64,000 nt of DNA from Callorhinchus milii (taxonomy: Eukaryota). Positions 54,701-60,700 of this stretch are shown here, piece by piece. The stretch lies in assembly GCF_018977255.1 (NCBI RefSeq), contig NW_024704742.1, positions 1,054,001 through 1,118,000 of the forward strand, in the 5' to 3' direction. Position 1 is the stretch's first letter. Each line of letters opens with the position of its first letter. Position numbers: made by a program.

Positions 54701-57700
54701 GCGAGGCGAGCGTGTTAACCACTACGCTTGGGACTCCTTGGAAATGGTTTCAAAGGGAAGTATTGAAAACACAGGAGACAGTTAGAAACCATCTTGGATA
54801 ATTATGACCATTCAGTTTTGAGGGAGGTTTAGCTCACAAATTTAGTCAGGACTCTGCAATGATTTTAATTGCAACACAAGTTCACATTGACATTTTCTAT
54901 ATTATCAGGAGATCAGAGCAGTTACGAACAAAGTAAACCTGTCAAAAGGTACGACAAGAGAATGTCACTCACCAAGAGCAAAGAAAATCCACCAGAGCCA
55001 AACATTTTCTTCAAAATAGCTGATAAAATAGTCAGAGAACTGTAAATAAAAGAATGCTTATATAAACTGCAATCCAATTGCAATATAAATTGAAATCCAT
55101 CCCAAATACAACAACAACAAAACTACACATGTAAAGCTCCTTTCATGTCGGGAGGACATCCCAAGGCGCTGGACAGTCAGAGTTTCGGACCCGAGCTGGG
55201 GGTTGGGATCGGGGAGGGTGGGTGGAGGGCAGGGGGGGTGAAGCAGGGTGATCGAACGTACGATCAAAGAGGAGGGTCTTGAGATGGATCTTGAAGGAGG
55301 TGAGGATTATTATATTATGATGATGATTATTATTATCTGGAATTTTTTTCTACATGGGGTTTGAACCCACAATTTTCGGACTCGGAAGCCACAATGCTAC
55401 AAACCGAGCCGGGCTTGACACCCAAGTCTCACATGTCTCCAAGCGCTTAACAAGTATGATAGACAGGACCAACCAGGGAAAAGTGAATGTTTGGTTGGCT
55501 GGGAGCACAGGAGAAACTCCCTTCATTTTTCAAATAATACCATGGGATCTTTAATGTCCACTTGAAGGGCCCTCCAAAGCACAGGATCTCTGACAAGGCA
55601 GTGCTCTTTCAGCGAAAAATGTCAGCCTAGTCTATGAGCTCACAGTCCTTCTTGAAACTACAACCTTTTGATTCACAGGCGAGAGTGCTATTAACTGAGG
55701 CCCGGCTGACACCTATGTTTCACGTGTTCTCACACTTAACAAATACGATAAAAACAAGCAGAGAAAAGTGAACGTCTGGTTGTGATGCAACAAATCCAGT
55801 TTGAGAATGAATTGCATTAGGCAGGATGGCAATGTGGGAACCGCAGCACGTATCAAGGCAGTAACGAAGACATGTCCACTTACCCTCACGATAAGGATCC
55901 ACTTAAGAAGTGAAAGGCCAAACCCAGAGATGGCACCATATCTGCCCGCAATGGTATTGGTTGAGCAGAAGGACAAAAAAAATCCAATCCAGTTGAAGAC
56001 GAAAGCAACTAAAAACCAAAGGAAGTGAAATGAATCATTAGTTTCGGGAAGGGTTTAAGCGGCTTTGAGAGGTAAAAAAAACAAGATTACATTTGTATCG
56101 TGCGTTTCACGAAACGTGGAATAGTGCACTGCAATGTGCGATGAGATCAGAAGATAATCACATTCAATAACAAGGACGTCTCCTCCGAGATCTACAAGGT
56201 GTCCACCAAGTCCTGTTATCTTTTTTATCCCCCTACACCGCACTGACCGACAACTGAAACACACGTGGAAGAATAATGATACTTGTACTTAGAAGTTCTT
56301 AATTCGGCACAAGTGTTTAACTGTACTTAGACGTCCAGAGGATCAGTGTGAGTGCCATCATTTTTATGGCAGATAATAATTTGTCACCGTGTTCATTGTG
56401 ACACTTCCATAACATGGATAGAGTGACGAGGGAAATGCATCGCTGACAACTTGTTTCAGCTCCTCCCTGGTCTCAAAGCACTGTTTTATAACGGGGGGGT
56501 AAGTAGGACTTTGTGGGCACCCTGTATTGTAGGACGGTTGCACAATTGTTTGACGTTCATTCCGTTCATTCCAGGTGCTTGGGAAGAGGAGGTACAGGCC
56601 ACACAACTGGCTCAACATTCAGCCAACCCACAGCATCATGGTGAACTGCATCTCTGGAGGAGTGTTTACATCGAGGTTGTTCACGGCATCTTATTTACCT
56701 TTACAGCCCCGTTGTATACTCCATGTGCCTTCTGCTTGTGCTAGCTTCCCCAACAGAGCTACCTACACTAATCCCACCATTGTCCCACAGTCAATTCACT
56801 TGACAGTCTATTCTGTGAAGCGCTTTGAAACGTCTCGAAGACGTGATAAGGCGCTGTATCCGATGCAAGGATTACTATTATTGATAGCTGAGCCTTCAGC
56901 AACTATTCCCCACCCATTAAAATACCCTCCGCCTGCGCCTACATCTCACCTCCTTCTCTATCTGTCTTTAAATCTCTTTCACTCTGTCTATGGTCACCTG
57001 CTCCCTCCTTCCCTGCTCCGAAACTGACATTGTCCTTGTGAAACGTGCCGAGAGATGATCCCACGTGAAGGCTGGTATATAATGTAAGTTGCTATTGTAC
57101 TGCTCCTTTGGATATCGTTCACGCTTCATCGACTGCACCCAATGGAGAGTGAGCCTGGTCAAACTCCTCTGATTTACAATCCGCTGGCATTGTTAAGTAA
57201 ATAGACACTGGATATGGCTGCCGTAATAAAATACTGCGACAGGTATTTGCTTTTAATAGTTAACAGAAAGAGGAGACGGTCATCTCAACTCTCTGGGCCC
57301 AATGCAGACTGATCTTATCTAAGCAAAGTTAGTGTTTTAATCCCCAAACCTATCCAATCTTCTTGCAAACAAAAGACTTTCCCTCTAGCCTCCAGCAATC
57401 GTGTTCTGTGCTCTCTTTCTCAGTCCTCCCTTTCCCCTGGTCTCTCAGCGTAGATTTACGCTGCTCTCAAATATCTGGCAGCCTTCTGTCTTAGAAGCAG
57501 ACACATAATAGATTCAGTTCAAGAATGGCTGTGAAAAATAATCTTAAATTATTCAAATATTGGGGTGAGAAAAGCTTGCATCTTTTTAAAAATGCCATGG
57601 CAACCTTGTCCTAAAGCAGGCGAGAGGGAAAAAAACATTCTCTAGAAGTCAGATTGATATTCAGCTCCAACCAGTCTGGAACCACTGTACACAAAGGTTC

Positions 57701-60700
57701 AGAAAATCCGTCCTTATGATAATGATAACGCTATTCACTGCAACTCTCCTTCCAATCATAGGCAAAACACGCAACAATTTCTAACCAGATTCCTTAATAA
57801 TGACTCTGAGCTGCAAATAAGGACTAAGGTGAATTATGTCACACAGACTCTGAAGGAGATCAGGTCAGAGTGGAGTTCCCGCAGCAGGTTGGTGTGACAT
57901 ATTTATGTTCCCTTCGGTGACTCGGATTCCTTATGAAAGAAACCCATTGGAGATTGGTATGTTTGAGGTTTCATTGTCTTAACATGTCAATGAATAAAAT
58001 TGAAGGTAACCACAGCATCGAAGCCCATTGCACAGTGTGAGGCAATAATGATAATAATAATAATAATGTTTGCGCCTGTTGTAGAGTTTATCACGTCAGC
58101 TCACCACTTTACAGTCTATCCTGAGATGCGTCTCAAGTGCATCACAGGATAGACTGTAAAGTGGTATGGTTGTGGAATGCACTTGACAGCAAGTGACGCC
58201 AAGGACATTATAACTGGATGTTTTGTTTTCCGAGGGAAAGCCGGCTCCCTTCTGAAATGACATGGATCAAAATCGGATTGTTTCATGGGTTCCTGTGAGA
58301 CAAACGACAGCAGGGTGAACTCACTGAAAAAGGTCAGTAGAAACATGCAATCGTCTCCTAGGCTGAGCTGATCCTCTTCATCGGACCCATCTTCTACTAG
58401 GAAATCATCGTCCTGTTGTATTGAACAAAAATGACAAGCACATTAAATAGGACACATTAACTGACGAGGTCTTAAATAGCATGTGTGTCACAGTCTGCCT
58501 AGCTGCCCATTACTGCACAGCCATACTGTATATGTTAGTACCCCCGGCTTGCCTCTCCCTCCCTCCCTCCCTCCCTCCCTCCCACACCCGTTTAAATAGC
58601 AGTCAATTTAGAATTCGCTATGTATTAGAATTCACTGTGCTATGTGCCCAGGCAGACGGCATAGTAGAAATGAGATCTGGCTGAAGGTGCACTCACGTAT
58701 TCGCAGAAGATAATTGGCTTGCCATTAAACTCCATCACCTAAAAGTCACCTTGTCAAGTTTCACATCGTTTTTGTTCGGTGGAGGCAGACAGCCATGTTG
58801 GGTCAAACTAAGCTACAGTACAACAGAGGGTGGCAAGCAGAGAAACCAATAACAATCATGCCACCCCCTCCACGTAACTCGCTGGGTTAAGACTTGCTGC
58901 CTCCAGTTTTGAACACAGGAAAACATGCCTGACATCAATCTATGTTGTGCGATGCATCCATGTCCTGCTTGGAATGCAGCGTTGCCGCAAGCAACCTATT
59001 TCTGATTCTCGGTGATGGATGAGCACATCTACTCTTAACATTCTGGATTCGGTCCATATCTTTAACGTTGATATTTTTCTAACACATAGCACTGCTACTT
59101 GAGGCTGAAGTAACACAGGGACAACATTTGCTGAGCGTATCAACTTCCCTGTTCCGTGCCGCCTGGGTTTCACAGCAAAGGATTAAACTGGGAGTGAAAA
59201 TAAACTGGGAGTGTAAATAAATCCAACACAAAGTTTGATTCAATTATACTGTATTCAATTATACTGAAATTATAGCCTATTTAATACTAGTGTTGGAGCT
59301 GCCACCTCTGTGCTAATACAAAGCCTCTTAGGATTGCATCAGATTTTCGCTGGAGGAACACATTAATCACACGAAGTGAACGGTGGGATGAAACAAAATG
59401 ATTTAGGAGGAACCAATCCTGGTTTCTATTTGCAGTAAGGTAGGCATTCGGGGGAAGTAACAAAGATGTTTTCACTGGCTGAGTTCCAGTGGCTAATAAT
59501 GAGATCCCACTTTAGGACCGTGTATTTAGAGAGACAGGATTTGTAAAGTGGCTATTAAATTGCAGCTGAAGTGTACACTGTGTATATGGAATGTAAAACC
59601 TGCAGAATTAAATAAAAACGGCACAGTCACAAACAGTTGCCTCATCAGGAGGAGCATTCCTAATGCTCCCACCCATTGGAGTGGATGTTGCTGACTTGCC
59701 ATCTTTTGGATAAGGTGTTAAGCCAAAGTCGCGTCTGCCTGTTCAGGTGGATGTTAAAGATCCCATGGCACTATTCGAAAAGAGAGAGTTTTTTCCCGGT
59801 GTCCCGGTCAACCAATTGGTTATTCACTTCATGGCTGTTTGTGGGACATTGCTGAGTGCAAATTGGCTGCTGGGTTCACCCAAAAGTCTACACTACGCTT
59901 TACAGTATATTCTGCAAAGTGTTTGAGATGGGTTGATAATGTGGTAAGGTGCTTATATCAAGTGAAAGGATTATTACACATTATAAACTAGGGTTCTTCA
60001 ATCTTGAAAGTAGACATCTCAAACCTATGATATATATTTAAATGGGTTGAAAAGTAAACCCAGAACAATACTTTAGGACGCACTGAGACAGTGGAATAAG
60101 AAGGCACAGGTTTCGAGTTGGAAAGGGCAGATAAAAATAAGTATTTATTTATCCAGAAGGTAATTAATGAATGGAACAGGGTTGCCAGGAAGGGTGGTGG
60201 AGACCTGGACACTGGAGTCATTTATAAAATAGCTTGATGCAGTGGTGAGAACAACTTGTATTTATATAGTGTCCTTCACATAGGAGAATGTCTTGGAGTG
60301 TTTCACAGGGATGAGATTGGACAGAGAGCAAGAGAGGAAGTGGGAGGTGACCTTAGGCTCCGACTAAGAAGTAAGTTTTGAGGTGGGATTTGAAGATAGA
60401 GAAAGAGGGAGCGAAGCAGAGGGATAAAGACAGGGAGTTCGCCCCGGCTCAGGAATGAGATTGCCGAGACGTAGAGGATTGAATCGGTTTTGACGCATCA
60501 GTTGCCAAGCACATGACAAGAGTACAGAAAAAGTGTGTCTGACCAGAGAGCGCGTCTGAACGGAGAGAAGGAAAGAGATGCGAGCAACGACTTTTTACAA
60601 TAGAATCAAAAATCGAACAACTTAGGAAACGGGAAAAATTTAATGAGCAGGTTGTGGCTCAACCTGGTTTATTTGCTCCTGTGCGGCACCAGATGGCGCT

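What the first reader, a model, noticed from the sequence alone, without database searches (positions are those of the whole stretch)
54973..58412. A third, divergent NDFIP paralog with a mix of NDFIP1 and NDFIP2 residues
Seen: three exons (88, 125 and 67 bp) with canonical splice sites join in frame into a three-TM NDFIP core. Known: mammals have only NDFIP1 and NDFIP2, both strongly conserved. This protein combines NDFIP1-type residues (NWIGFFLSFC, GAISGFG) with NDFIP2-type residues (TNTIAG, FSDYF, WWIF). It also changes positions shared by both (R.GNDG to SLGDDC; GYF.GQYW to SYFEENVW). Inference: it may be an ohnolog from the vertebrate genome duplications, retained in cartilaginous fish and lost in mammals.
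Basis: partly seen in the sequence, partly recalled or inferred. Interest (0 to 1): 0.75.

Follow-up and report, generated by a model that had tools for sequence, protein, structure and literature searches.

The report
Shark NDFIP paralog lacking ligase-binding motifs
The flagged exons belong to a third, old member of the NDFIP membrane-adaptor family, found so far only in sharks, rays and chimaeras, that keeps the membrane core but has lost the motifs its relatives use to recruit ubiquitin ligases.

Summary
Three minus-strand exons (58412..58325, 56008..55884, 55039..54973) have canonical splice sites and compatible phases. Exon B alone hits Pfam NEDD4_Bsd2 (E=6e-15). The window is Callorhinchus milii, not human. 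The exons are the middle of a gene NCBI already annotates ("NDFIP1 isoforms X1-X3"), which also has a 13-codon first exon (58735..58697) and a last exon 27 kb away (27952..27876). Orthologs ("NDFIP1-like", 119-166 aa) are annotated in at least 12 other chondrichthyans. C. milii also has a canonical NDFIP1, and five elasmobranchs have a canonical NDFIP2, so this is a third gene. In trees the short clade (100/100) lies outside both the NDFIP1 and NDFIP2 crown clades. It carries 0 of 8 NDFIP2-derived and 1 of 4 NDFIP1-derived residues, so the "mix" is mostly retained ancestral states. AU tests against a recent duplicate are inconsistent between data sets. My best guess (inferred, about 0.3) is a ligase-uncoupled competitor for NDFIP cargo. 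A whole-genome-duplication origin could not be tested. No paper describing this gene was found.

The parts
58697..58735 (-). First coding exon: 13 codons (MEFNGKPIIFCEY) followed by donor GTGAGT. The ATG has G at -3 and G at +4, and there is an in-frame TAG two codons upstream.
   Evidence: 100% match to residues 1-13 of P0001-P0003. 12 of 13 columns are invariant among the four full-length short orthologs.
58325..58412 (-). Exon A (88 bp): acidic juxtamembrane stretch and the start of helix 1.
   Evidence: 12 of 29 columns are invariant among the short orthologs.
55884..56008 (-). Exon B (125 bp): the rest of helix 1, the loop and helix 2. This is the most conserved part.
   Evidence: (PF10176, E=6e-15). 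39 of 42 columns are invariant.
54973..55039 (-). Exon C (67 bp): the loop and the start of helix 3.
   Evidence: 14 of 22 columns are invariant.
27876..27952 (-). Coding part of the last exon as annotated in isoform X3: the end of helix 3, ..NYAKVRR, then RWLPRSPP and stop TGA (27878..27876).
   Evidence: 100% match to P0002 residues 107-131.
27847..27903 (-). Conserved C-terminal tail (KMAAKIATLKRSRFRFIY plus stop), lying out of frame because of 2 extra bases near 27905..27902 relative to the orthologs.
   Evidence: 13 of 18 residues identical to the Heterodontus tail and 11 of 18 to the skate tail. The stop is at the orthologous position.
43617..43874 (-). Alternative terminal exon of annotated isoform X1. 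Its tail is not conserved and it replaces the end of helix 3.
   Evidence: P0003 residues 107-172 match here.
19338..19463 (-). Terminal coding exon of annotated isoform X2. That isoform skips exon C and reads the 27.9-kb exon in another frame.
   Evidence: the P0001 C-terminus matches here.

Best explanation
The three exons are the middle of the Callorhinchus milii ortholog of a short (about 140 aa) NDFIP-family gene found across cartilaginous fishes. The gene is separate from canonical NDFIP1 and NDFIP2. It most likely split from them before cartilaginous and bony vertebrates diverged, and it has been found nowhere else. Shown: the protein keeps the family's membrane core, predicted as three helices, and the acidic stretch before it. 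Also shown: the roughly 100-residue cytosolic head with three PY motifs is replaced by a conserved 13-residue N-terminus. Established in the literature: those PY motifs are what bind and switch on NEDD4-family ubiquitin ligases, while a PY-less NDFIP2 fragment made of the membrane core still binds a cargo (AQP2). Inferred: the short protein sits in the same endomembranes and can still engage membrane cargo or partners, but cannot recruit a ligase. It would then act as a ligase-uncoupled competitor (decoy) that spares cargo from NDFIP1/2-driven ubiquitination. Alternatively it uses the core and its new N-terminus for a ligase-independent job. My odds: third, PY-less gene about 0.85; origin before the gnathostome crown about 0.7; decoy mechanism about 0.3.
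For: Identity: exon B hits PF10176 at E=6e-15. All exons are 100% identical to annotated C. milii proteins P0001-P0003, and orthologs are annotated in 12 other chondrichthyan species. Separate gene: C. milii has a canonical NDFIP1, P0131. Canonical NDFIP2 occurs in Cetorhinus, Carcharodon, Heptranchias, Pristis and Heterodontus, and in four of these it is on a contig of different length from the one carrying the short gene. No PY motifs: 0 of 15 short proteins have [PL]PxY, while 26 of 27 canonical proteins have three and one has two. No relic PY exon was found in the window. Placement: the short clade has 100/100 support and lies outside NDFIP1 (100/99 and 96/96) and outside NDFIP2 (96/86 in the core-only tree). 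It carries 0 of 8 NDFIP2-derived and 1 of 4 NDFIP1-derived states. Constraint: Pristis versus Heterodontus is 83/97 identical. Exon 1 is invariant at 12/13 columns and exon B at 39/42. Fold: helices at 26-58, 62-85 and 97-139 with pLDDT 70-86. Literature, passages read: PY motifs are required for ligase binding and activation (PMC12720080, PMC5892558). PY mutants keep endosomal localisation, are stabilised and fail to down-regulate Robo1 (PMC6913780). NDFIP2 aa 203-336, without PY motifs, binds AQP2, and PY-lacking NDFIPs do not support its ubiquitination (PMC5606929).
Against: The AU tests are not consistent. 'Short clade + C. milii NDFIP1' gives p=0.005 on 210 columns but p=0.123 on 127 core columns. 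'Short clade + chondrichthyan NDFIP2' gives p=0.071 and p=0.012. The short clade sits on a long stem (1.45 against 0.57 for NDFIP1), so long-branch effects are possible. The sister relation to NDFIP1 (93/74) disappears on core columns. All three genes were not shown together in any single species. Polarity rests on two cyclostome sequences. The start codon comes from NCBI models, and the window has only 5.3 kb upstream of it. An AG directly before GTG-ATG could in principle be an acceptor. No expression, localisation or binding data exist, so the mechanism is inference only. In this assembly the C. milii copy has a frameshifted tail and two annotated isoforms that disrupt helix 3.
Confidence: 0.6

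Rival explanations
1. A duplicate of NDFIP2 (or NDFIP1) that arose within cartilaginous fishes, lost the PY exons and then evolved fast. On this view its position outside both clades is a long-branch artefact.
For: The short clade has a long stem. The AU test does not reject union with chondrichthyan NDFIP2 on 210 columns (p=0.071), nor union with C. milii NDFIP1 on 127 columns (p=0.123). The gene is known only from chondrichthyans.
Against: Both unions cost 11.6-18.1 lnL units in all four tests, and each is rejected in one data set (p=0.005; p=0.012). A duplicate of NDFIP1 would need exact reversal to the NDFIP2/cyclostome residue at five sites (60, 61, 62, 87, 102). A duplicate of NDFIP2 would need exact reversal at four sites (53, 70, 123, 137). 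Chondrichthyan NDFIP1 and NDFIP2 already carry every derived state of their clades.
Confidence: 0.15
2. The short form is only an annotation or alternative-promoter product. PY-encoding exons would lie upstream of the window, and the real protein would be an ordinary ligase adaptor.
For: Only 5.3 kb of sequence lies upstream of exon 1 in the window. The bases before the start read ..TTTTAG|GTG ATG, a possible acceptor in phase 0.
Against: 0 of 15 annotated proteins from 13 species carry a PY motif, including those with alternative first exons. The Met-led 13-mer is invariant at 12 of 13 columns across chimaera, sharks and rays. If the exon extends upstream, an in-frame TAG lies two codons before the ATG. 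The ATG context has G at -3 and G at +4. No PY-like exon appears in 58.7-64 kb.
Confidence: 0.07
3. The gene is functional in elasmobranchs, but the C. milii copy in this window is decaying under relaxed constraint on the way to a pseudogene.
For: Two extra bases put the conserved 18-residue tail out of frame. Two of the three annotated isoforms destroy helix 3. The terminal branch is long (0.75, against 0.041 for C. milii NDFIP1). There are 3 unique changes at otherwise invariant family positions, against 0-2 in the other short orthologs.
Against: All splice sites are canonical and no exon has an in-frame stop. Exon B is 93-98% identical to the orthologs. The count of 3 unique changes is only slightly above the 0-2 of the others. 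The out-of-frame tail is still 13/18 identical to Heterodontus with its stop in place, so the shift is either very recent or an assembly error. A chimaera branch is expected to be longer than branches within elasmobranchs.
Confidence: 0.12
4. The protein has a ligase-independent function of its own, for example in membrane-protein sorting or metal-transporter handling. This would use the conserved 13-residue N-terminus as a new interaction site, rather than competing with NDFIP1/2.
For: The new N-terminus is the most conserved cytosolic part (12/13 columns). Five positions that are invariant in all 36 canonical rows are changed in all four full-length short proteins, at alignment positions 25, 30, 43, 96 and 97. 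This suggests a shifted function rather than simple loss.
Against: No known motif or partner was identified for the 13-mer, and it is predicted to be disordered (pLDDT below 50). Nothing tested here separates this idea from the decoy idea.
Confidence: 0.25

Closest known systems
NDFIP1 (canonical; C. milii P0131 and other gnathostomes)
   Same: Same Pfam family PF10176 and the same three-helix core. Core identity is 67-70%. It shares F53, S70, K123 and the Ala of NYAK with the short form. NCBI names the window's gene after it.
   Different: NDFIP1 has a cytosolic head of about 100 residues with three PY motifs, and the short form has none. The short form lacks 3 of 4 NDFIP1-derived states, lies outside the NDFIP1 clade (100/99 and 96/96) and evolves much faster.
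NDFIP2 (canonical; shark and ray P0264, P0267, P0268, P0281, P0283)
   Same: Same family and core. It shares TNTIAG, FSDYF and WWIF with the short form, but cyclostomes have these too, so they are ancestral states.
   Different: NDFIP2 has three PY motifs against none. The short form has 0 of 8 NDFIP2-derived states. Core identity is 61% within Pristis. In 4 of the 5 species with a canonical NDFIP2, the two genes lie on contigs of different length.
Engineered PY-mutant NDFIPs and the NDFIP2 aa 203-336 fragment (PMC6913780, PMC5606929, PMC12720080; passages read)
   Same: Both are PY-less proteins with an intact membrane core. In the literature such constructs keep endosomal localisation and are stabilised, the fragment binds AQP2, and none can drive ligase-dependent cargo loss. 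The natural short protein covers almost the same region as that fragment.
   Different: The constructs are laboratory products of mammalian genes. The shark gene is natural and conserved across chimaera, sharks and rays. It has its own conserved 13-residue N-terminus and clade-specific substitutions in the core. Its behaviour is untested.
Ray-finned-fish 'ndfip1-like' (ndfip1l; e.g. Danio P0135, Polyodon P0142)
   Same: It carries the same database label, 'NDFIP1-like'.
   Different: These proteins are 210-227 aa with three PY motifs and the NDFIP1-type core, and they nest inside the NDFIP1 clade. They are not orthologs of the shark short gene.
Yeast Bsd2 (named in the Pfam family; role as recalled and as cited in PMC5892558 passages)
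   Same: It is the founding member of the same Pfam family, a three-pass membrane adaptor.
   Different: Bsd2 works through a PY motif that recruits the ligase Rsp5, and the shark protein has no such motif. It was not compared by sequence here.

Membership tests
NEDD4_Bsd2 / NDFIP sequence family (Pfam PF10176) | Significant match to the family profile | tested here: met
   Exon B alone scores 56.1 bits, E=6e-15, against a cut-off of 24.7. All database orthologs carry PF10176.
NEDD4_Bsd2 / NDFIP sequence family (Pfam PF10176) | Three membrane-spanning helices | tested here: met
   The AlphaFold2 model of the Pristis ortholog, built from a 41-row alignment, has helices at 26-58, 62-85 and 97-139 with pLDDT about 70-86. 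This is a prediction only.
NDFIP as a functional class (NEDD4-family-interacting adaptors) | Cytosolic PY motifs (PPxY/LPxY) that bind ligase WW domains | tested here: not met
   0 of 15 short proteins have [PL]PxY. 26 of 27 canonical proteins have three, and one low-quality lamprey model has two. No relic PY exon was found in the window.
NDFIP as a functional class (NEDD4-family-interacting adaptors) | Binds and activates NEDD4-family HECT ligases | not testable with these tools
   This needs co-IP and ubiquitination assays.
NDFIP1 orthologs | Nests in the gnathostome NDFIP1 clade and carries its derived residues | tested here: not met
   It lies outside a clade with 100/99 and 96/96 support that includes C. 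milii NDFIP1. It has 1 of 4 derived states. AU for union with C. milii NDFIP1 gives p=0.005 and p=0.123.
NDFIP2 orthologs | Nests in the gnathostome NDFIP2 clade and carries its derived residues | tested here: not met
   It lies outside the 96/86 clade in the core-only tree. NDFIP2 was not resolved as one clade in the 210-column tree. It has 0 of 8 derived states. AU for union with chondrichthyan NDFIP2 gives p=0.071 and p=0.012.
Ohnolog of the vertebrate genome duplications | Lies in a paralogous chromosome block shared with the NDFIP1 and NDFIP2 regions | not testable with these tools
   No neighbouring gene was recognised in the window, and no eukaryotic genome collection was available.
Ohnolog of the vertebrate genome duplications | Duplication after the split from invertebrates and before the cartilaginous/bony fish split | tested here: inconclusive
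   The vertebrate sequences form one group (98/98 and 90/96) with the short clade inside it and outside both crown clades. However, the node is a polytomy and the AU tests are inconsistent.

The most novel reading that the evidence does not exclude
Cartilaginous fishes have kept, since before chimaeras split from sharks and rays, a natural 'anti-adaptor'. It would be an NDFIP whose membrane core still captures cargo, or mixes with NDFIP1/2 in endosomal membranes, but which cannot recruit NEDD4-family ligases. It would therefore act as a built-in brake on ubiquitin-dependent down-regulation of transporters and receptors. That would show the NDFIP membrane core to be an autonomous functional module, and it would supply a ready-made natural inhibitor of the pathway.
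Probability: 0.25. Interest if true: 0.7.

Novelty: new variant of a known kind. Interest (0 to 1): 0.5.

Why it matters
NDFIP1 and NDFIP2 are defined by their PY motifs, and the literature treats the membrane core mainly as an anchor. A PY-less family member under purifying selection across chimaeras, sharks and rays argues that the core, together with a new 13-residue N-terminus, has a function of its own. It offers a natural test of whether cargo binding and ligase recruitment can be separated. It also corrects a database label: the C. milii gene named 'NDFIP1' is not the NDFIP1 ortholog. Finally, it adds a vertebrate gene lineage that was apparently lost in bony vertebrates. Since it is found only in cartilaginous fishes and there are no functional data, its immediate reach is limited.

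Tried and rejected
- Pfam on exons A (29 aa) and C (22 aa) alone gave no hits, because they are too short. Their identity rests on tblastn of database proteins against the window.
- The joined three-exon peptide was not made or searched.
The representative hits therefore stayed unnamed. Ten invertebrate-type hits (37-48% identity) served as anonymous outgroups. One hit (P0318) looked like a C-to-T-converted vertebrate NDFIP1 of unknown origin and was dropped.
- Complex prediction on the Pristis NDFIP2 core (112-234) with the Pristis short form gave no verdict (score 0.00, controls not run, alignments not used). It says nothing either way.
- A search for relic PY exons used the N-termini of four canonical chondrichthyan proteins against the window. 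The only hit below E=0.01 is a proline-rich, stop-containing stretch inside a LINE (36465..36262), and it is not a PY exon.
- A survey of ORFs of 90 aa or more found no recognisable neighbouring gene, so synteny is untestable here.
- dN/dS was not possible, because no ortholog coding DNA was available.
- The 'sister to NDFIP1' result (93/74) was not reproduced on core columns, so I do not claim it.
- MAFFT placed KPIIF of the 13-mer against the second PY motif (KPPSY/KPPAY) of NDFIP1 and hagfish. With only 2-3 matching residues this cannot be told from chance, and I do not claim the N-terminus is a degenerate PY motif.
- Literature searches for a third or PY-less NDFIP, ndfip1l/Ndfip3, or NDFIP ohnologs found nothing relevant.

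
Full report
**What is in the sequence.** The feature is on the minus strand. Read directly, there are three exons:
- Exon A: 58412..58325, 88 bp, acceptor AG, donor GTGAGT, phase 0 to 1.
- Exon B: 56008..55884, 125 bp, acceptor AG, donor GTAAGT, phase 1 to 0.
- Exon C: 55039..54973, 67 bp, acceptor AG, donor GTGAGT, phase 0 to 1.

Each exon was handled on its own. Exon B alone matches Pfam PF10176 (NEDD4_Bsd2) at 56.1 bits, E=6e-15, well above the 24.7-bit cut-off. 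Exons A and C (29 and 22 aa) are too short to score (one search was a one-base coordinate slip that I corrected). The window contains no N.

**Whose genome, and is it annotated.** I searched the large protein collection with exon B alone. It is 100% identical to three annotated Callorhinchus milii proteins named 'NEDD4 family-interacting protein 1 isoform X1/X2/X3' (P0003 172 aa, P0001 136 aa, P0002 131 aa). It is 93-98% identical to 'NDFIP1-like' proteins of Heterodontus, Cetorhinus, Hemiscyllium, Stegostoma, Carcharodon, Leucoraja, Mobula birostris and Pristis. Rhinoraja, Mobula hypostoma and Scyliorhinus were added. tblastn of these database proteins against the window matches every exon at 100% for the C. 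milii proteins. The window is therefore C. milii (elephant shark), not human, and the gene is already annotated.

**Full gene structure.** The gene is far larger than the flagged span.
- The first coding exon is at 58735..58697. It encodes 13 residues (MEFNGKPIIFCEY) and ends in donor GTGAGT. The ATG has G at -3 and G at +4, and an in-frame TAG lies two codons upstream.
- The last exon lies 27 kb downstream. Its coding part is 27952..27876.
- Isoform X1 uses an alternative terminal exon at 43874..43617.
- Isoform X2 skips exon C, reads the 27.9-kb exon in another frame and ends at 19463..19338.

The three flagged exons cover helix 1, helix 2 and only the start of helix 3.

**It is a third gene.** C. 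milii also has a canonical NDFIP1 (P0131, 243 aa, from an older annotation held by EukProt). It has the motifs PPPY, PPSY and LPTY and the NDFIP1-type core. It is only 70% identical to the window's protein over the core (77/110). A profile of gar-relative, bichir and coelacanth NDFIP2 (alignment A1) retrieved canonical NDFIP2 of 232-234 aa from Cetorhinus, Carcharodon, Heptranchias, Pristis and Heterodontus. In four of these species it lies on a contig of a different length from the contig carrying the short gene. I did not see all three genes in one species. C. milii shows NDFIP1 plus the short gene, and the elasmobranchs show NDFIP2 plus the short gene. The ray-finned-fish proteins labelled 'ndfip1-like' are NDFIP1-type, have three PY motifs and nest in the NDFIP1 clade. 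They are not orthologs of the shark gene.

**Where it branches.** I built a maximum-likelihood tree (LG+C20 PMSF) of 54 rows:
- 6 short forms. The C. milii row was cut before its frameshifted tail, and two rows were cut to remove alternative first exons.
- 15 NDFIP1-type rows and 20 NDFIP2-type rows.
- 2 cyclostome rows.
- 10 unnamed invertebrate-type representatives as outgroup, and 1 unnamed divergent row.

On 210 columns the short clade has 100/100 support on a long stem (1.45). Gnathostome NDFIP1, including C. milii NDFIP1, has 100/99. The short clade is sister to NDFIP1 at only 93/74.

On the 127 shared core columns (53 rows) the tree gives four separate lineages at an unresolved node: cyclostomes, the short clade (100/100), NDFIP1 (96/96) and NDFIP2 (96/86, containing the five shark and ray NDFIP2s at 99/95). 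The short clade therefore lies outside both crown clades, and its sister group is unresolved.

The AU tests of the two 'recent duplicate' alternatives depend on the data set:

| Hypothesis | 210 columns | 127 core columns |
|---|---|---|
| Short clade + C. milii NDFIP1 | ΔlnL 16.7, p=0.005 | ΔlnL 11.6, p=0.123 |
| Short clade + chondrichthyan NDFIP2 | ΔlnL 18.1, p=0.071 | ΔlnL 15.8, p=0.012 |

Both alternatives are disfavoured in all four tests, but neither is rejected in both.

**The 'mix' explained.** There are 19 core and tail columns where NDFIP1 and NDFIP2 are each at least 90% fixed but differ. I polarised them with the two cyclostome sequences.
- At the 8 NDFIP2-derived sites, the short clade never has the NDFIP2 state. 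It has the ancestral state at 4 and its own state at 4.
- At the 4 NDFIP1-derived sites, it has the ancestral state at 3 and shares the NDFIP1 state at 1 (the Ala in NYAK).
- The 7 unpolarised sites split 2 NDFIP1-like, 3 NDFIP2-like and 2 neither.

Chondrichthyan NDFIP1 and NDFIP2 already carry all their clades' derived states. A recent duplicate of NDFIP1 would therefore need five exact reversals (sites 60, 61, 62, 87, 102). A duplicate of NDFIP2 would need four (53, 70, 123, 137). This is my main reason for placing the split before the cartilaginous/bony fish divergence (about 0.7). Whether the duplication was a whole-genome event is untested. The window has no recognisable neighbour, and no eukaryotic genome collection was available.

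**Distribution.** A search with the skate ortholog P0009 returned only chondrichthyan short forms at the top. Below them came a flat plateau (180-186 bits, 59-67% identity) of NDFIP1, NDFIP1-like, NDFIP2 and hagfish proteins. A scan of 1.84 billion cluster representatives gave 387 hits. Only chondrichthyan short clusters exceeded 65% identity over the full length. Among all 424 proteins retrieved, the short-type core together with NYAK and no PY motif occurs only in chondrichthyans. None of this proves absence elsewhere.

None of the 15 short proteins (13 species, all isoforms retrieved) has a [PL]PxY motif. Of the 27 canonical proteins checked, 26 have three, and a low-quality lamprey model has two. 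The roughly 100-residue cytosolic head is replaced by the 13-residue N-terminus. No relic PY exon is detectable in the window, although only 5.3 kb lies upstream of exon 1.

The short gene is constrained but faster-evolving than its relatives. Pristis versus Heterodontus is 83/97 (86%) for the short gene against 126/127 (99%) for NDFIP2. Invariant columns among the four full-length short proteins are 12/13 in exon 1, 12/29 in exon A, 39/42 in exon B, 14/22 in exon C, 11/16 in the last exon up to VR, and 7/18 in the tail. Five positions invariant in all 36 canonical rows are changed in all four full-length short proteins. An AlphaFold2 model of the Pristis ortholog (41-row alignment, mean pLDDT 68.1) has helices at 26-58, 62-85 and 97-139 at pLDDT about 70-86. 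Residues 1-31 are disordered.

**How it most likely works.** From passages I read:
- NDFIP2 needs multiple PY motifs to bind and disinhibit WWP2 (PMC12720080).
- The PY motifs are the ligase-binding sites and act as a dense membrane array (PMC5892558).
- PY-mutant Ndfip1/2 keep late-endosomal localisation, Ndfip1 is stabilised, and both fail to down-regulate Robo1 (PMC6913780).
- A human NDFIP2 fragment, aa 203-336, without PY motifs but with the membrane core, binds AQP2. PY-lacking NDFIP1/2 do not support AQP2 ubiquitination (PMC5606929).

The shark protein is essentially a natural version of that fragment. Shown: an intact family core and no PY motifs. Inferred: it cannot recruit NEDD4-family ligases, and it either competes with NDFIP1/2 for cargo or partners (a decoy, about 0.3) or has a ligase-independent role through the core and the new N-terminus (about 0.25). 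A complex prediction of the Pristis short form with the Pristis NDFIP2 core gave no verdict and is not evidence either way.

**The C. milii copy.** In the last exon the sequence reads ..GTA CGG AGA AGA TGG.., which has 2 more bases than the frame of the orthologs requires. As a result, annotated isoform X3 ends RRRWLPRSPP. The conserved tail (KMAAKIATLKRSRFRFIY plus stop, 27903..27847) lies out of frame, yet it is still 13/18 identical to Heterodontus. Isoform X2 (P0001), which reads across the same bases in its own frame, is held both by NCBI and by EukProt. If EukProt's set comes from the older assembly, which is my recollection and was not checked, the extra bases are in two assemblies. The shift is either very recent or an error. 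The C. milii protein has 3 unique changes at otherwise invariant family positions, against 0-2 in the other short orthologs. That is mildly elevated and not a clear pseudogene signature.

**Novelty.** The gene models are public, but the C. milii gene is named as if it were NDFIP1. My searches found no paper on a third or PY-less NDFIP (search listings only, supplements closed). I rate it a new variant of a known kind, with interest 0.5. An NDFIP specialist would be surprised, but it is limited to cartilaginous fishes and has no functional data.

Noticed in passing
window 27847..27911 (-): The last exon carries 2 extra bases (..CGG AGA AGA TGG..) relative to the shark and ray orthologs. This puts the conserved 18-residue C-terminal tail and its stop out of frame, and annotated isoform X3 ends in 9 unrelated residues. 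It is either a real recent frameshift or an assembly error.
   Followed up: partly
window 43617..43874 (-), 27827..27958 (-), 19338..19463 (-): Annotated isoforms X1 and X2 use an alternative terminal exon in the 27-kb intron, or skip exon C and read the last exon in another frame. Both replace helix 3 with unconserved sequence, so they look like splicing noise or non-functional products.
   Followed up: partly
proteins P0121, P0122, P0123 (Rhinoraja, Mobula hypostoma, Scyliorhinus): These 119-aa isoforms of the short gene lack the first half of exon B (most of helix 1), apparently through an internal acceptor. In the window the corresponding bases read GCG GGC, so the AG that such an acceptor would need just before GC is absent in C. 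milii. I worked this out by hand.
   Followed up: partly
window 35951..36709 (-): A 253-aa open frame matches the endonuclease/exonuclease/phosphatase family (PF03372, E=1.8e-12). It is a LINE endonuclease remnant inside the large intron, flanked by proline-rich low-complexity sequence (36.2-37.2 kb).
   Followed up: yes
window 41019..41092 (-), 43903..43974 (+), 45898..45960 (+), 50361..50423 (-): Four matches to the Rfam tRNA model (36-47 bits) lie inside the large intron. They are most likely heads of tRNA-derived SINEs rather than tRNA genes.
   Followed up: no
window 33690..34066: A C/A-rich tandem array (units of 8, 38, 76 and 100 bp built on CCCACTCA-like motifs) gives a 322-aa open frame with no Pfam match.
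   Followed up: partly
protein P0314 (unnamed representative): A 225-aa NDFIP2-type protein with three PY motifs but a very divergent core (48% identity to the skate short form, terminal branch 1.38).
   Followed up: no
alignment, short-form residues 6-10: MAFFT aligns KPIIF of the conserved 13-residue N-terminus with the second PY motif (KPPSY/KPPAY) of NDFIP1 and hagfish. With 2-3 matching residues this may be chance. If it is real, the N-terminus would be a degenerate remnant of a PY exon.
   Followed up: no
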